Virus record (IMG/VR): IMGVR_UViG_2718218452_000008
Location: 1-38,347 of that record
Length of the DNA stretch: 38,347 nt
Source of the DNA: a virus
Lineage: Duplodnaviria > Heunggongvirae > Uroviricota > Caudoviricetes
Reading direction: 5' to 3' (one strand)
Both the position numbers and the translations under genes were made by a program. Positions 3,482-7,725 of this stretch are shown in pieces. The notes below the pieces were generated by a model. The model ran no database searches. It was given only the letters and a program-made list of their open reading frames with translations, and was not told where the DNA came from. Within the stretch, counting starts at the first letter, position 1, and the number at the start of each line of letters is the position of its first letter.

Positions 3482-3904
3482 GTGGCAAAAGTTTTTACAC
3501 AAGAAGAGCGGGAAAAAATTAAAGGGCAGGTTGTTGAACTCGTACGCCGGAGTGGGCGTGAGACGTTACGGCAACTGGAAGTCAAGACAGGTGCGACAAG
3601 ATATCTGATGAGCGTTCTCGCAAGAGAGCTGGTTGCCAGCGGCGATGTATACAACTCTGGTTACGGGTTATTCCCGTCTGAACAGGCGCGTAAGGACTGG
3701 CAAAATGCCCGTAAAAAGCTCTCAAGGGCAAAGCTGAAGGAACCATCTGCGGTTGATCCGGACCTTATCTGGTCATTACCTGACGGAGAAATACGTCGCT
3801 ACGACAGGCGTCAGAACATAATCTGTCGCGAGTGCCGGAAGAGTGAAGTTATGCAGCGCATACTAGCATTCTATCAGGGAAATGCTCGATATTTATTGAA
3901 GTGA
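3482..3904 (+). CDS. Hypothetical protein (140 aa)
   Basis: GTG start 5 nt after a strong AGGAGGG Shine-Dalgarno; normal GC; no recognisable motif. Confidence 0.5.
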   Translation: MAKVFTQEEREKIKGQVVELVRRSGRETLRQLEVKTGATRYLMSVLARELVASGDVYNSGYGLFPSEQARKDWQNARKKLSRAKLKEPSAVDPDLIWSLPDGEIRRYDRRQNIICRECRKSEVMQRILAFYQGNARYLLK

Positions 3905-4156
3905 TGAGATTAAAGTTTATTAGTTCAGATATTGATTGGCTCTTTTGTGGAGTAGGGTAGAGTTAGTGTGTTTGTCTGCTTGGTGCCAGCAGCGGATATG
4001 TTTAACAACAGAAAGCATTCAGCATGGTTAGTGGATTTGCAAAGTGGATTAGGATTTGAGAAACTTTGATGAAGTTGTAAAGCTTGTTTCTATAAAAATA
4101 GAAATTTAACTAATAGTTAAACACACCTCCAGCTTCATTGAAAAGGATTATTAGCT

Positions 4157-5056
4157 ATGATTGATCCACTTATTAGAAACTTACAGAGTGATATTGCACT
4201 ACTCCAGCTTTATATCGCGCAACGCAAACAGGCAGGCTTTCATGACATGGAAAGAATAATTGAGTCATTGACCATCTTTATGTTTCGCGCGCTGAAAATG
4301 GGTGAACTGGTAAACATGAATCAGATTAAAGTTAATTTTCCCGCCATTGATTTAGCTGATAATAAAAACATGATAGCAGTTCAAGTTACTACGAATGCAA
4401 GTCCAGCAAAAATTAAAAAAACTATCGAATCTTTTGAGAAAATAAATGAAATAGGAGAGAGTCTGAAAGATAAATACTCTACTTTATATATTTTTGGTTT
4501 TTGTAAAGCCTCAAGATACCTAACTCCAAGTTATTGTAAAATAATCGACCCCAGCTATTTCGTGAATGAACTTTGCGATAAAGCAGATGAAGATATGGTC
4601 CAGGATATGATTGACGCCATTCGACGCCATCATGATTATACATCATTACATCCATGGAGTGATAAAGATTCACTCGAAATTATACTCAATATTATTAATC
4701 GCAATGCAATAAAACATCGGATGAGTTGCGAAGGCAGTCTGTCTGATATGCTCACTGGTTTAAAAGAAATTAATGAAGTAATTACAAAAGGAACAATTCA
4801 ACGTAAGCAACGTTCAAAATCGATATCTGACTTCAAAGATCAAAGCATGGTGAAATTTATGAGAGGTGTAATGGATGATTTGTCTGTTATTCAAGCCATA
4901 GTGAACAAATCTAAAGTTAACCAAGGTGATATGGTTTATATAAGCCATGAAGATATGATTAATATTGATAAATTAAAAGCTAAAATAGCAAGTGATTCAT
5001 CAGAGATTGCAAGGCTAAATAATATTGATATAACACTAAATGTTGTTGATTTATAA
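4157..5056 (+). CDS. Putative SMEK-domain protein (299 aa), low-GC accessory gene
   Basis: The N-terminal region (NFPAIDLADNKNMIAVQVTTNASPAKIKKTIESFEK...LYIFGFCKA) resembles the SMEK domain as I recall it. The gene is strongly AT-rich relative to flanking phage genes and has an AGGA Shine-Dalgarno. Confidence 0.6.
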   Translation: MIDPLIRNLQSDIALLQLYIAQRKQAGFHDMERIIESLTIFMFRALKMGELVNMNQIKVNFPAIDLADNKNMIAVQVTTNASPAKIKKTIESFEKINEIGESLKDKYSTLYIFGFCKASRYLTPSYCKIIDPSYFVNELCDKADEDMVQDMIDAIRRHHDYTSLHPWSDKDSLEIILNIINRNAIKHRMSCEGSLSDMLTGLKEINEVITKGTIQRKQRSKSISDFKDQSMVKFMRGVMDDLSVIQAIVNKSKVNQGDMVYISHEDMINIDKLKAKIASDSSEIARLNNIDITLNVVDL

Positions 5057-5370
5057 TTGTCGATTTAGCAAAACAGAGAATGCTTTGAAAGTTTCACCGA
5101 GAAATATTTATTGTGAACCTCCTTATTGTTTATCGACTTTTACTCTCCGCTCATTGCAGTACTGTCGGAGAAGGCTACTATGTACAAGAAGCAGCTAACA
5201 TAAGCGAGCATCACTATTGATATTAGGAAGAGTATATAAAAACTTCATGCTGAACCTTACAAAAGTAGGTAAACCGGCAATGGCCTAAGTGGCAGGGTCA
5301 TGTTGATCCGGCACTGCCGAGCTAATAATTAACAAGCAAATCACTCTTTCTAATAATTTGTTGAAATAAA

Positions 5371-6024
5371 CTAAATATGTATATGTTTACCAACAACCAC
5401 ATATGAACTACCTGCTTTGCTCCATGATTTTATTATTTCTAAATTATTATCTGAGCATATTTTACTTACAGTATCCACATCTAATAAACCATAGTAGAAA
5501 GCATTGCGAGAGTTTTGGTATATATACCCATGCAAATGTTTAATACCGCTCTCGTACCTCTTGAAATAAGAACTTTTGTATTGATTGACAATCAGTGCTT
5601 CACCATCACTCTTTAATAATTCTCTAATCGCACTGAGGACTTTGTGAATTGTGGATTCACATGGAATTGCGGAAAGCACGTTTGCGCAAAGTATGAAATC
5701 ATAATGATTTGTTATTTTATCTATATTTTCATAAGAAACAATATTAGCATTCTTATAGTTATTTATCACGTAATCTGGAATCGTGGTTTGTACACCTCTG
5801 ATAATTTGCACTCTTTCTAGTTGTCTTCTGGAATCTAAAAATGTCACAGTTTCAAATTTATTTACTAATTGTTCTGAATATCTAAGTTTTCCACATCCAA
5901 AATCAAGGGCATTGCCATTTTTATTAGTGCTTTCAATCTGTTTACAGAGATAGTTAGATGGCATAGTGTGCGGTTTCGCTGCATTTTCTGAACGTATGTT
6001 TATTCCATTTATTTTGTAATTCAA
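5371..6024 (-). CDS. Class I SAM-dependent methyltransferase (about 217 aa), not DNA-MTase-like
   Basis: Motif I ALDFGCGKLRYS, acidic end of beta-2 (VTFLDSRRQ), post-I ILCANVLSAIP, and LLKSDGEALIV. It lacks DPPY/NPPY and PCQ motifs. Probable TTG start at 6024 (GAGG 6 nt upstream) or 6030; starts 13 bp after the membrane-protein stop. Confidence 0.75.
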   Translation of the reverse strand: MNYKINGINIRSENAAKPHTMPSNYLCKQIESTNKNGNALDFGCGKLRYSEQLVNKFETVTFLDSRRQLERVQIIRGVQTTIPDYVINNYKNANIVSYENIDKITNHYDFILCANVLSAIPCESTIHKVLSAIRELLKSDGEALIVNQYKSSYFKRYESGIKHLHGYIYQNSRNAFYYGLLDVDTVSKICSDNNLEIIKSWSKAGSSYVVVGKHIHI

Positions 6025-6036
6025 AATCAACCTCGT

Positions 6037-6732
6037 TTAAAAAATATTGTTATTGTTAAAGAATTCTTTTATTTTGCTATCAGGTATTTGTCTTACTTGG
6101 CTTTCTGTTCTTGGTTTAACTGATGCTATGAAAATAAGGAAGTCAAATGCGACAAGAGAAATAATCCACAACCAAAGATTAATTAAAGAGCCAGTAACAG
6201 AGAATATATTTGTTAATTTGGCGATACTTATTATTAAAATAGTAACAAATGCGATTACTGTATGTTCAAAGAAAACCCAAAAGTAATAAACTTTGTTCCA
6301 GAAAAGTTCAACGTAATGTTTGTCTTTTAACTCTTTAACTTCTGGGTAATACAGTTTACTCATTACCTTGTGAGATTCATCAGTAGTTAATTTTCTCGTA
6401 ACGCCTGCAATTTTTGCTAATGGTTTAATAATTAAATGACTATCCCACATCTTCCTTATTCCAATAATTTTTGCTACATTATTATGTAGATCTAAAGCTC
6501 CACTAATTACTGACCAAAAAACTGAAGATGCAATTGGTAATATGCCAAAGGTTAATATCCATTTAATAAATTCCTCGTAGTCTTTAACGGGGGGGATATA
6601 CTTGGCATTAATGCCAACCAATGGCATGTAGCCATAAATGACTAATGATAGGTAAAATATAAATGTAGTAATAAAAGTCGCCTTATGGAGCATAGGCAAC
6701 ATTTCATTATAACTCTTTGGTGGTTCTAACAT
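6037..6732 (-). CDS. Predicted 4-TM integral membrane protein (231 aa), first gene of a two-gene operon with the methyltransferase
   Basis: Four long hydrophobic segments (ATFITTFIFYLSLVIYGYMPLVGI; FIKWILTFGILPIASSVFWSVISGAL; YYFWVFFEHTVIAFVTILIISIA; LINLWLWIISLVAFDFLIFIASV). ATG at 6732 has GGAG 7 nt upstream. Very AT-rich. Confidence 0.7.
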   Translation of the reverse strand: MLEPPKSYNEMLPMLHKATFITTFIFYLSLVIYGYMPLVGINAKYIPPVKDYEEFIKWILTFGILPIASSVFWSVISGALDLHNNVAKIIGIRKMWDSHLIIKPLAKIAGVTRKLTTDESHKVMSKLYYPEVKELKDKHYVELFWNKVYYFWVFFEHTVIAFVTILIISIAKLTNIFSVTGSLINLWLWIISLVAFDFLIFIASVKPRTESQVRQIPDSKIKEFFNNNNIF

Positions 6733-7173
6733 TTTACTCTCCAAACACTCAAAAAAAAGCTAATCTTCTATAATAACGAAATTCAGCTGGCACAATTAAA
6801 GATTAATTGCCACCAATTTCTTGATTTTATAATTTTATCTAAATGTTTTTGATTAATCTAGTCCTAAAAGAAACCTACTGCATAAATATTTATGCTGATG
6901 ACCCACTCCCTGTTCGTTAACACATAGCAACGTTAGTAATGCATCCTAAGTGATCAATATTTTTGCTAGCTTCATCTGCTCGCTCAAAGGGAACTATAAT
7001 GTTGGCTTGCGTGTGACTTGGCATGTTTAAAGAAGTGCTGGTGGTGACTGGTTGCTGTTTTCCATTTCCACAGAACAAAATCATAGAAACTATACCCAGT
7101 AGTTGTATTGAATCACTGACGAGACAGCCTCATATTTATCAGGACTGGTGTACGTCCAATACAGGAGGTTGTG

Positions 7174-7263: not shown

Positions 7264-7474
7264 TTTCATATTGGCGAGGTAACGGTAGTTAAGTAGAATT
7301 GCTGCGGGTGCTTGAGGCTATCTGCCTCGGGCATCAACACCAAAGGCAGATAGAGAAAAGCCCCAGTTAACATTACGCGTCCGGCAAGACGCTTAACATT
7401 AATCTGAGGCCATATCTATGCTCTACACACGTAGGTTAGCCTCTTACGTGCCGAAAGGCAAGGAGAAGCAGGCT

Positions 7475-7630
7475 ATGAAGCAGCAAAAGGCGATGTTAAT
7501 CGCCCTGATCGTCATCTGTTTAACCGTCATAGTGACGGCACTGGTAACGAGGAAAGACCTCTGCGAGGTACGAATCCGAACCGGCCAGACGGAGGTCGCT
7601 GTCTTCACAGCTTACGAATCTGAGGAGTAA
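7475..7630 (+). CDS. hok: Hok/Gef-family type I toxin (51 aa)
   Basis: MKQQKAMLIALIVICLTVIVTALVTRKDLCEVRIRTGQTEVAVFTAYESEE is the Hok family signature and near-identical to K-12 HokD/RelF as recalled. The track ORF 7418-7630 extends in frame upstream. Confidence 0.85.
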   Translation: MKQQKAMLIALIVICLTVIVTALVTRKDLCEVRIRTGQTEVAVFTAYESEE

Positions 7631-7698
7631 GAGACCCGGCGGGGGAGAAATCCCTCGCCACCTCTGATGTGTCAGGCATTCTCAACGCACCCGCATTT

Positions 7699-7725
7699 AA
7701 CCCGCTTCGGCGGGTTTTTGTTTTT
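7699..7725 (+). terminator. Intrinsic terminator downstream of hok
   Basis: CCCGC-TTCG-GCGGG hairpin at 7701-7714 followed by TTTTTGTTTTT. Confidence 0.6.

What the first reader, a model, noticed from the sequence alone, without database searches (positions are those of the whole stretch)
4157..5056. Putative SMEK-domain protein as a stand-alone accessory gene
The N-terminal region of this 299-aa protein resembles the SMEK domain as I recall it (AIDL.D ... IAVQVT ... KIKKTIESF ... LYIFG), a domain I associate with predicted conflict systems. The C-terminal half has no motif I recognise. It converges on the membrane/MTase operon and shares its low GC, so the three genes may form one module.
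Basis: partly seen in the sequence, partly recalled or inferred. Interest (0 to 1): 0.75.

Follow-up and report, generated by a model that had tools for sequence, protein, structure and literature searches.

The report
Stand-alone SMEK nuclease gene in prophage
A 299-residue gene carried as cargo by an E. coli lambdoid prophage encodes a restriction-enzyme-like (SMEK/Mrr-type) nuclease domain fused to a helical domain found only in this family. It is most likely an untested single-gene anti-phage nuclease rather than part of an obligate three-gene system.

Summary
ORF 4157-5056(+) is real and its N-terminal half is a SMEK domain (Pfam PF21941 E=2e-22; NCBIfam NF033859 E=1e-30). RefSeq already names the identical protein 'SMEK domain-containing protein'.

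- **C-terminal half (157-299):** conserved, under purifying selection, predicted helical, with no Pfam or PDB relative. Apart from fragments and one spurious repeat match, its hits in 1.84 billion representatives are ~274-356-residue proteins with the domain at the C end; all nine divergent ones scanned carry SMEK_N.
- **Distribution:** Proteobacteria and Bacteroidota, with no conserved neighbour. It travels with about 180 bp of conserved upstream DNA and sits beside CBASS, Abi_alpha, AbiGi, SLATT, retron-type RT and toxin-antitoxin genes. In a sibling prophage the same slot holds PD-T7-1.
- **Neighbouring genes:** the methyltransferase and membrane genes are ymfD/ymfE homologues, a separately mobile pair. 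The trio recurs in five backbones, but only in one sub-clade.

Verdict: a plausible new single-gene defence nuclease of a known kind. Function is untested; interest is moderate.

The parts
3978..4156 (+). Conserved upstream region that travels with the SMEK gene. It may hold a promoter (TTGATG at 4066-4071, then TCTATA/TATAAA at 4089-4096, read by eye) and has a Shine-Dalgarno AAGGA at 4143-4147.
   Evidence: The left edge of homology falls at window 3968-3985 in most loci, whether or not the ymfDE-like pair is present; two exceptions begin at 4033 (L081) and 4142 (L043). About 180 bp is alignable across Escherichia, Enterobacter, Pectobacterium and Yersinia loci (A5). The simple promoter scan did not call a site here, so the promoter is an inference.
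4157..5056 (+). CDS of the 299-aa SMEK-domain protein (identical to RefSeq WP_000566848.1).
   Evidence: There are 108 mostly full-length homologues at 31-99% identity.
4157..4624 (+). N-terminal SMEK_N domain (residues 1-156), a Mrr-like PD-(D/E)xK nuclease fold. Invariant residues are E36 (4262-4264), D65 (4349-4351), Q76 (4382-4384) and K85 (4409-4411).
4625..5053 (+). C-terminal family-specific domain (residues 157-299). It is predicted as four long helices plus short strands. Conserved residues are P166, D169, R182, A184, E192, G193, G212, K221, D271 and K274.
5057..5284 (.). Spacer between the two units of the composite cassette.
   Evidence: Homology to SMEK-only loci ends at 5043-5059, and homology to a ymfDE-only locus begins at 5288. 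In L073 and L075 the stretch 5216-5285 is not alignable. No terminator, significant hairpin or credible small ORF was found.
5371..6030 (-). ymfD-like class I SAM-dependent methyltransferase (small-molecule type). It is a neighbour and not an obligate partner.
   Evidence: Matches Methyltransf_12/23 and TehB. It is 69% nucleotide-identical to ymfD of e14. It has no DPPY or PCQ motif.
6037..6744 (-). ymfE-like membrane protein with about four hydrophobic segments (the RefSeq start gives 231 aa, ending at 6732). It is always followed by the ymfD-like gene.
3978..6898 (.). Low-GC composite cassette (SMEK unit plus ymfE/ymfD unit) inserted between the DUF977 gene and hokD of a Qin/DicB-type lambdoid prophage.
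   Evidence: GC profile. Block boundaries against L034, L044, L072 and L076. Five unrelated flank contexts. The slot holds other cargo in sibling prophages.

Best explanation
The gene encodes a self-contained, two-domain candidate anti-phage nuclease, carried as cargo (a 'moron') by prophages, integrative islands, ICEs and one plasmid.

Shown here:
- The N-terminal 156 residues are a SMEK/Mrr-like PD-(D/E)xK nuclease domain.
- Four residues (E36, D65, Q76, K85) are invariant across the family and are shared with the solved SMEK domain of the Kordia short-Argonaute partner.
- The C-terminal 143 residues form a conserved helical domain whose hits are, apart from fragments and one spurious repeat match, proteins of this ~300-residue architecture.
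- The gene moves with its own conserved upstream region and has no conserved partner gene.

Inferred:
- The C-terminal domain is the sensing, regulatory or oligomerisation module. It keeps the nuclease inactive until an infection cue appears, such as a phage protein or nucleic-acid feature.
- Once triggered, the nuclease degrades DNA non-specifically and aborts the infection, protecting the lysogen population.
- This is analogous to the way APAZ/pAgo or STAND modules control the same type of effector.

The adjacent ymfE/ymfD-like pair is most likely a second, independent cargo module that became linked to SMEK in one sub-clade.
For: Domain identity: (the PADLOC match covers only the REase part of an Argonaute-associated REase-APAZ model).

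Homology to a solved SMEK ('Mrr') domain of KjAgo's partner. All four invariant residues are aligned there. The literature reports that SMEK-APAZ/KjAgo has collateral DNase activity (PMC12205087, PMC10810196) and that SMEK is Mrr-like, with AspBHI as its closest nuclease (bioRxiv 10.1101/2023.06.08.544223).

Invariant E36/D65/Q76/K85 at 16-25% identity.

C-domain exclusivity. Purifying selection on both domains.

No conserved neighbour.

Defence or mobile context:
- CBASS cyclase plus 4TM effector
- Abi_alpha
- AbiGi in an ICE
- SLATT_5 and a Gp49/HTH toxin-antitoxin pair
- PDC-S06 and HNH in integrase islands, plus SymE and TacAT
- retron-type RT, IetS and PDC-S21

In a sibling prophage the same DUF977-hokD slot carries PD-T7-1 (E=7e-157).

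Distribution is patchy: 152 of 5426 complete E. coli genomes.
Against: - There is no experimental evidence of nuclease activity or phage protection for any member. No paper in the searchable library treats stand-alone SMEK proteins.
- No PADLOC model matches the full length.
- The canonical lysine of the (D/E/Q)xK motif is Thr78 throughout the family. K85 as the substitute lysine is an inference I could not check in 3D.
- KjAgo/SMEK-APAZ activity was described as weak.
- The full-length model has pTM 0.58, so the interdomain arrangement is uncertain.
- The gene lies co-directionally in the phage early-right region, and the simple scan found no promoter upstream. Expression in the lysogen is therefore not shown.
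- The trio recurs in five backbones, which leaves room for a functional tie to ymfDE.
Confidence: 0.5

Rival explanations
1. The three genes are one functional system. The SMEK nuclease would work together with the YmfE-like membrane protein and the YmfD-like methyltransferase. For example, the pair could sense envelope or infection stress, or modify a small molecule or protein that gates the nuclease, or it could act as an immunity function.
For: The trio keeps the same arrangement and the same outer boundaries (~3978-6898) in at least five unrelated flank contexts. These include a second lambdoid prophage and an IncHI2A plasmid. All three genes have co-diverged: SMEK 84-90%, MTase 82-85%, membrane protein 85-91% protein identity. 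In e14 the ymfDE pair also sits next to a single-gene abortive-infection effector, Lit.
Against: - SMEK homologues at 30-83% identity lack the pair in every other context examined.
- The ymfE/ymfD pair occurs without SMEK at 85-86% protein identity in Cronobacter and Enterobacter prophages, in P2-like prophages after ogr, and in 283 E. coli genomes carrying e14.
- Each unit has its own reusable boundaries, and the spacer between them is not conserved.
- The genes are convergent and not co-transcribed.
- The methyltransferase has no DNA-methyltransferase motifs.
Confidence: 0.2
2. The protein is a constitutively active, Type IV-like (modification-dependent, Mrr/MspJI-style) restriction endonuclease. 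The C-terminal domain would recognise modified or otherwise foreign DNA, and incoming DNA would be cut directly without killing the host.
For: The catalytic domain is Mrr-like, with structural neighbours MspJI and AspBHI. Type IV enzymes are typically single genes without a cognate methyltransferase and occur in defence islands, which matches the stand-alone distribution.
Against: The C-domain has no similarity to SRA, winged-helix, Mrr_N or other known DNA-reading modules. It is roughly neutral in charge (pI 7.15). The related SMEK effector in KjAgo acts as a collateral nuclease and not a site-directed one (PMC12205087).
Confidence: 0.15
3. The gene serves the phage itself. It could be a recombination, replication or host-takeover nuclease, or an anti-defence factor, of the early-right (nin-like) region, and not a host-protective function.
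For: It lies between the replication genes (O-like, DUF977) and the hokD/DUF968/RusA/Q region and is co-directional with early-right transcription. Lambdoid phages keep accessory nucleases such as RusA in that region.
Against: Most family members are not in phages at all. They occur in chromosomal islets, integrase islands, an ICE and a plasmid. No sequenced phage in INPHARED carries a full-length copy. The slot is variable cargo space that elsewhere holds PD-T7-1. The low GC content marks it as foreign to the prophage backbone.
Confidence: 0.07
4. The protein is catalytically dead and acts as a DNA-binding or regulatory protein. Older records call relatives 'regulator'.
For: Legacy names such as 'regulator' and 'similar to regulator of acetyl CoA synthetase' appear in some records. 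The canonical motif lysine is replaced by Thr78.
Against: Four active-site-type residues are invariant over very large distances and are shared with a homologue from a system with reported nuclease activity. The legacy names carry no experimental support. No helix-turn-helix or other regulator domain was detected.
Confidence: 0.04

Closest known systems
SMEK-APAZ (also called Mrr-APAZ), the effector subunit of short prokaryotic Argonaute systems, e.g. Kordia jejudonensis KjAgo (clade S2B, SPARDA-type)
   Same: The N-terminal nuclease domain is homologous: PDB 26bh_D at E=1.9e-12 over residues 20-139, with E36, D65, Q76 and K85 conserved. The PADLOC Aga_REase model matches at E=1.4e-20. Both are effector domains of conflict systems.
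   Different: There is no APAZ domain; the PADLOC match covers only profile positions 9-143 of 463. There is no adjacent short pAgo gene. The protein is 299 aa against roughly 460. In place of APAZ it has a family-specific ~140-residue helical domain.
Mrr-like nuclease effector domains of other defence proteins: Type ISP LlaBIII, Type IV MspJI/AspBHI, Avs4, and the NucC, Can2 and Cdn1 type cyclic-nucleotide-activated nucleases
   Different: There is no NTPase, CARF/SAVED or SRA-like partner domain. The motif is D...QxT with a downstream invariant lysine, not D...(E/Q)xK. Sequence identity is only 7-15%.
Single-gene prophage-encoded defence cargo of E. coli: PD-T7-1 in the same slot of sibling prophages, and Lit of e14
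   Same: It occupies the same kind of genomic niche: low-GC single-gene cargo in a variable prophage slot. PD-T7-1 occupies the identical DUF977-downstream position. Lit sits beside the ymfDE pair in e14.
   Different: There is no sequence or domain relationship to either. PD-T7-1 and Lit have experimental support, and this gene has none.
ymfD/ymfE of cryptic prophage e14 (for the two neighbouring genes)
   Same: The order is the same, membrane protein then methyltransferase. They are 69% nucleotide-identical over 1.35 kb, and the domain content is the same.
   Different: e14 has no SMEK gene. Neither pair has a known function.

Membership tests
SMEK domain family (Pfam PF21941 SMEK_N / NCBIfam NF033859) | Profile match above the curated gathering score | tested here: met
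   Pfam 79.9 bits against 27, E=2.2e-22. NCBIfam 105.1 bits against 30, E=1.3e-30.
SMEK domain family (Pfam PF21941 SMEK_N / NCBIfam NF033859) | Restriction-endonuclease (PD-(D/E)xK, Mrr-like) fold | tested here: met
SMEK domain family (Pfam PF21941 SMEK_N / NCBIfam NF033859) | Conserved active-site-type residues and metal-dependent nuclease activity | tested here: inconclusive
   E36, D65, Q76 and K85 are invariant in 30 sequences down to 16% identity and in the Kordia domain. Activity cannot be tested with these tools. The canonical motif lysine is Thr78.
Short pAgo system with SMEK-APAZ effector (SPARDA-type) | APAZ domain C-terminal to the nuclease domain | tested here: not met
   The PADLOC REase-APAZ model is matched only at profile positions 9-143 of 463. 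The C-terminal half has no detectable relative, and the protein is only 299 aa.
Short pAgo system with SMEK-APAZ effector (SPARDA-type) | Adjacent short Argonaute (MID-PIWI) gene | tested here: not met
   The neighbours are a DUF977 gene and the ymfD/ymfE-like genes. No such neighbour is annotated in the gene-annotated homologous loci, and the 17 GTDB loci share no neighbour at all.
Restriction-modification system (SMEK as REase plus the adjacent methyltransferase) | Cognate DNA methyltransferase (N6/N4 or C5 motifs) | tested here: not met
   The MTase matches Methyltransf_12/23, TehB and NodS-type small-molecule families and no DNA methyltransferase family. It has no (D/N/S)PP(Y/F/W) or PCQ motif.
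Restriction-modification system (SMEK as REase plus the adjacent methyltransferase) | Obligate co-occurrence of nuclease and methyltransferase | tested here: not met
   SMEK occurs alone in most contexts. ymfDE occurs alone in e14 and in other prophages.
Type IV (modification-dependent) restriction enzymes of the Mrr/MspJI kind | Mrr-like catalytic domain | tested here: met
Type IV (modification-dependent) restriction enzymes of the Mrr/MspJI kind | Recognisable modified-DNA-binding domain (SRA-like, winged helix, Mrr_N) | tested here: not met
STAND/Avs-type defence NTPases with Mrr-like effector | Central P-loop NTPase and a repeat sensor | tested here: not met
   There is no P-loop motif and no NTPase family hit. 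The protein is 299 aa.
Catalogued anti-phage systems (PADLOC-DB v2.0.0) | Full-length match to a model of a described or candidate system | tested here: not met
   Only a partial, domain-level hit to Aga_REase was found.

The most novel reading that the evidence does not exclude
The ~300-residue 'SMEK_N plus private C-terminal helical domain' proteins could be a new, widespread single-gene abortive-infection system. A previously undescribed sensor domain would directly gate a Mrr-like DNase. In one enterobacterial sub-clade the system may have recruited the YmfE/YmfD membrane-methyltransferase pair as an accessory module. That would also give a first functional handle on ymfDE of e14, which likewise sits beside the Abi protease Lit.
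Probability: 0.12. Interest if true: 0.6.

Novelty: new variant of a known kind. Interest (0 to 1): 0.4.

Why it matters
If the gene protects against phages, it would add a compact 0.9 kb single-gene system to the defence repertoire of E. coli prophages. It would also show that the SMEK/Mrr-like effector, so far studied only as the nuclease arm of short Argonaute systems, can be driven by a completely different and much smaller control domain. The family-specific C-terminal domain would then be a new sensing or regulatory module worth structural study.

The finding also helps annotation. It documents that the DUF977-hokD slot of Qin-type prophages is a defence-cargo hotspot. It also shows that ymfE/ymfD is a discrete, mobile two-gene moron found in known prophage hotspots.

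The domain assignment itself is not new, because RefSeq already carries it, and nothing here overturns current views.

Tried and rejected
- **C-domain relatives.** A PDB profile search gave E >= 0.3. A Pfam scan of 14 members at E <= 10 gave no family hit in more than one member. The word-indexed search found only fragments.
- **Alternative architectures for the C-domain.** None were found among 92 hits in 1.84e9 representatives. The one 977-aa hit is a repeat artefact.
- **Conserved partner gene.** Clustering 209 neighbouring ORFs from 18 loci gave no shared family other than SMEK itself.
- **Restriction-modification coupling with the methyltransferase.** Rejected on motifs and distribution.
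- **RNA element or type III-like antitoxin in the conserved upstream region or spacer.** No Rfam hit apart from hok/sok further downstream. Folding z-scores were not significant. There were no credible small ORFs.
- **Flanking repeats or att-like sites at the cassette edges.** Only AT-rich chance matches were found.
- **Promoter and terminator scan.** No site upstream of SMEK and no terminator between the convergent genes; counts were below the shuffle expectation.
- **Literature.** No paper in the library deals with stand-alone SMEK proteins, 'Mrr-APAZ', or the function of ymfD/ymfE.

Full report
**Setting**

The window is a lambdoid prophage of Escherichia coli of the Qin/DicB type. Around the finding lie:
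- a dicA-like repressor gene (1269-1676, -), dicC/cro-like, ydaT-like and O-like replication genes, and a DUF977 gene (3482-3904);
- downstream, hok/sok, DUF968, rusA and Q genes, followed by three tRNA genes.

The 3.2 kb around the finding is 100% identical to E. coli chromosomes; 151 of 5426 complete genomes carry nearly the whole stretch. RefSeq annotates it as 'SMEK domain-containing protein | class I SAM-dependent methyltransferase | hypothetical protein'. No deposited phage genome contains the module; only a ~120-bp stretch at its hokD-side edge matches two Escherichia phages.

**The observation**

The ORF 4157-5056 (+) exists, has a good Shine-Dalgarno sequence, and its start is conserved in homologues. 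The quoted motifs are present.

The SMEK assignment is confirmed well above curated thresholds by Pfam (PF21941, 79.9 bits against 27) and NCBIfam (NF033859, 105.1 bits against 30). Nothing in Pfam, NCBIfam, PHROGs or PADLOC matches the C-terminal half.

The gene and the two convergent genes share a GC content of 0.31-0.34, against 0.45-0.55 in the flanks. The domain assignment itself is already in the public annotation.

**The N-terminal domain**

- PADLOC matches only the nuclease part (profile positions 9-143 of 463) of an Argonaute-associated REase-APAZ model.
- A profile of 30 homologues hits one solved structure, 26bh, 'the Mrr domain from Kordia jejudonensis Mrr-APAZ pAgo', at E=1.9e-12 over residues 20-139.
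- The literature describes this SMEK-APAZ protein as forming a heterodimer with KjAgo that shows weak collateral DNase activity (PMC12205087; PMC10810196). It calls SMEK 'Mrr-like', with AspBHI as the nearest nuclease (bioRxiv 10.1101/2023.06.08.544223).
- A separate AlphaFold model of residues 1-160 is very confident (pLDDT 93.4, pTM 0.88).
- When members as distant as 16-25% identity are aligned, only E36, D65, Q76 and K85 stay invariant in this domain. All four are also present in the Kordia domain.
- The motif reads D...QxT, followed seven residues later by the invariant lysine. That K85 replaces the canonical motif lysine is my inference.

**The C-terminal half**

Residues 157-299 are conserved along their whole length in 108 homologues. 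They evolve under purifying selection like the N-domain (dN/dS 0.10-0.31 against 0.10-0.45). They are predicted as four long helices with short strands.

No informative relative was found:
- Foldseek on PDB finds nothing significant.
- Profile searches of PDB sequences and Pfam find nothing consistent.

A profile of this half alone, run over 1.84 billion representative proteins, returns only 92 hits. Apart from fragments and one spurious 977-residue repeat match, these are 274-356-residue proteins (nearly all 286-320) with the domain at the C-terminal end. Nine of nine divergent full-length hits carry SMEK_N. The domain appears private to this two-domain family. Other SMEK_N proteins, on plasmids for example, share only the N-domain.

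**Distribution and context**

Relatives occur in Enterobacterales, Pseudomonas, Vibrio, Aeromonas, Xanthomonas, Stenotrophomonas, Burkholderiales, Marinomonas and, more distantly, Bacteroidota. In E. coli the gene is patchy, in 152 of 5426 genomes.

Among 17 loci from GTDB species-representative genomes, clustering all neighbouring ORFs finds no shared family other than SMEK itself. In most loci the gene carries about 180 bp of alignable upstream DNA, and the left edge of homology falls at window 3968-3985.

Neighbours are typical of defence islands and mobile elements:
- CBASS cyclase plus 4TM effector in Pectobacterium
- Abi_alpha in Vibrio
- AbiGi in a Yersinia ICE
- SLATT_5 and a Gp49/HTH pair in Pseudomonas
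- PDC-S06, HNH, resolvases and integrases beside proBA in Enterobacter, or SymE and TacAT
- a retron-type reverse transcriptase, IetS and PDC-S21 among 56 neighbours of 15 genomes

In prophages with the same backbone, the slot downstream of the DUF977 gene holds other cargo instead. One example is PD-T7-1 (E=7e-157), a system in PADLOC's catalogue of described anti-phage systems.

**The neighbouring genes**

The methyltransferase and membrane genes are homologues of ymfD and ymfE of cryptic prophage e14 (69% nucleotide identity). There they lie next to the Abi protease gene lit and without any SMEK gene.

The membrane-then-methyltransferase pair is itself a mobile unit:
- At 85-86% protein identity it occurs alone after the O/P genes of an Enterobacter prophage, and next to umuDC-like genes in Cronobacter.
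- At 63-78% identity it occurs after ogr at the end of P2-like prophages.

The methyltransferase is of the TehB/Methyltransf_12/23 type without DNA-methyltransferase motifs. The membrane protein has about four hydrophobic segments.

**Is the trio one module?**

The evidence points both ways.

For:
- The same convergent arrangement, with the same outer boundaries (~3978-6898), is found for SMEK alleles of 84-100% identity.
- It occurs in five unrelated flanking contexts, including another lambdoid prophage and an IncHI2A plasmid of Citrobacter koseri.
- All three genes have co-diverged.

Against:
- The cassette splits into two units with their own reusable edges: the SMEK unit ~3978-5059 and the ymfDE unit ~5285-6898. 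The spacer between them is not conserved in some alleles.
- Each unit is found alone at comparable divergence (83-84% for SMEK in Pectobacterium; 85-86% for ymfE).
- The genes are convergent, and no more distant SMEK homologue has the pair.

I read the trio as a composite of two independent cargo modules that became linked in one sub-clade. I leave about 0.2 probability for real functional coupling.

**Most likely mechanism**

Shown: a Mrr-like nuclease fold with conserved active-site-type residues, fused to a conserved private domain, moving as a single gene through defence-rich mobile DNA.

Inferred, by analogy with how APAZ/pAgo, STAND, CARF or SAVED modules gate the same class of nuclease:
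- The C-domain senses an infection cue or drives oligomerisation.
- This releases a non-specific DNase, giving abortive infection that protects the lysogen population.

I give this a confidence of about 0.5.

Rivals:
- a three-gene system with ymfDE (0.2);
- a direct Type IV-like restriction enzyme whose C-domain reads modified DNA (0.15);
- a phage-serving nuclease (0.07);
- an inactive regulator (0.04).

**Comparison with what is known, and novelty**

The protein is a member of the SMEK domain family; all testable criteria were met. It is not a member of the following:
- the short-pAgo SMEK-APAZ systems (no APAZ domain and no pAgo gene);
- a restriction-modification system;
- a STAND/Avs protein;
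- any system modelled in PADLOC v2.

No paper in the searchable library addresses stand-alone SMEK proteins. I therefore class it as a new variant of a known kind: a familiar effector with an undescribed control domain and a single-gene architecture. Interest is moderate. It is a reasonable, cheap candidate for a phage-challenge assay, but neither surprising to specialists nor a key to an open question.

**Limits**

- There are no experimental data.
- I could not open the model coordinates to check the geometry of the active site or the interdomain contacts. The full-length pTM is only 0.58.
- The promoter is read by eye and was not called by the scan.
- The defence association was not scored against a genomic background.

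Noticed in passing
window 5371-6744 (-); L045 (e14), L046, L048, L050-L054: The membrane-protein-then-methyltransferase pair is a ymfE/ymfD homologue and is a discrete mobile two-gene moron. It lies next to lit in e14, after ogr at the end of P2-like prophages (a known defence hotspot), and after O/P in an Enterobacter lambdoid prophage. Its function is unknown, and it may itself be a defence or exclusion candidate.
   Followed up: partly
L036 7227-8576 (-) (E. coli strain 455, NZ_CP183146): In a sibling prophage, the slot immediately downstream of the DUF977 gene carries PD-T7-1 (PADLOC E=7e-157) plus an unannotated 314-aa protein in place of the SMEK cassette. This slot is a cargo and defence hotspot.
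   Followed up: partly
window 3978-4156; alignment A5: About 180 bp upstream of the SMEK gene is conserved across Escherichia, Enterobacter, Pectobacterium and Yersinia loci. It includes an imperfect palindrome (CTGCTTGGTGCCAGCAG, about 3981-3997) well upstream of the putative promoter. This could be an operator or a recombination edge; no RNA structure or small ORF was detected.
   Followed up: partly
window 7306-7480 (+) and ORF 7418-7630: There is a complete hok/sok type I toxin-antitoxin locus (Rfam sok, 114 bits; hokD CDS) just downstream of the cassette. A sub-threshold isrK-like match lies at 7639-7720.
   Followed up: no
window 10776-11025 (+): Three phage-borne tRNA genes lie downstream of the Q gene. 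ARAGORN calls the first Met(CAT), while RefSeq annotates the same gene as tRNA-Ile (presumably lysidine-modified CAT). The other two are Arg(TCG) and Arg(TCT).
   Followed up: no
L002 (NZ_JBFBIU010000052.1, 'Streptomyces sp. NPDC088196', 3 kb contig): An 87% identical, 34% GC copy of the SMEK gene sits on a 3 kb contig of a Streptomyces assembly. This is almost certainly enterobacterial contamination of that assembly and not a real actinobacterial homologue.
   Followed up: no
E. coli records H24-H27, H40, H41, H51 (e.g. NZ_CP017631) and H67 (NZ_CP024155): Some E. coli genomes carry a 1-nt shorter SMEK allele annotated as two pieces (frameshifted). One genome has an IS1 insertion within the ymfDE-like pair. 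The cassette is therefore decaying in part of the population.
   Followed up: no
L030 7958-8617 and 9002-10736 (Pseudomonas, CP145799): In Pseudomonas the SMEK homologue is followed, in several independent contigs, by the same unannotated 219-aa protein, a SLATT_5 protein and a 309-aa protein. This may be a local multi-gene defence cluster. The 219-aa protein is unrelated to the window's methyltransferase.
   Followed up: partly
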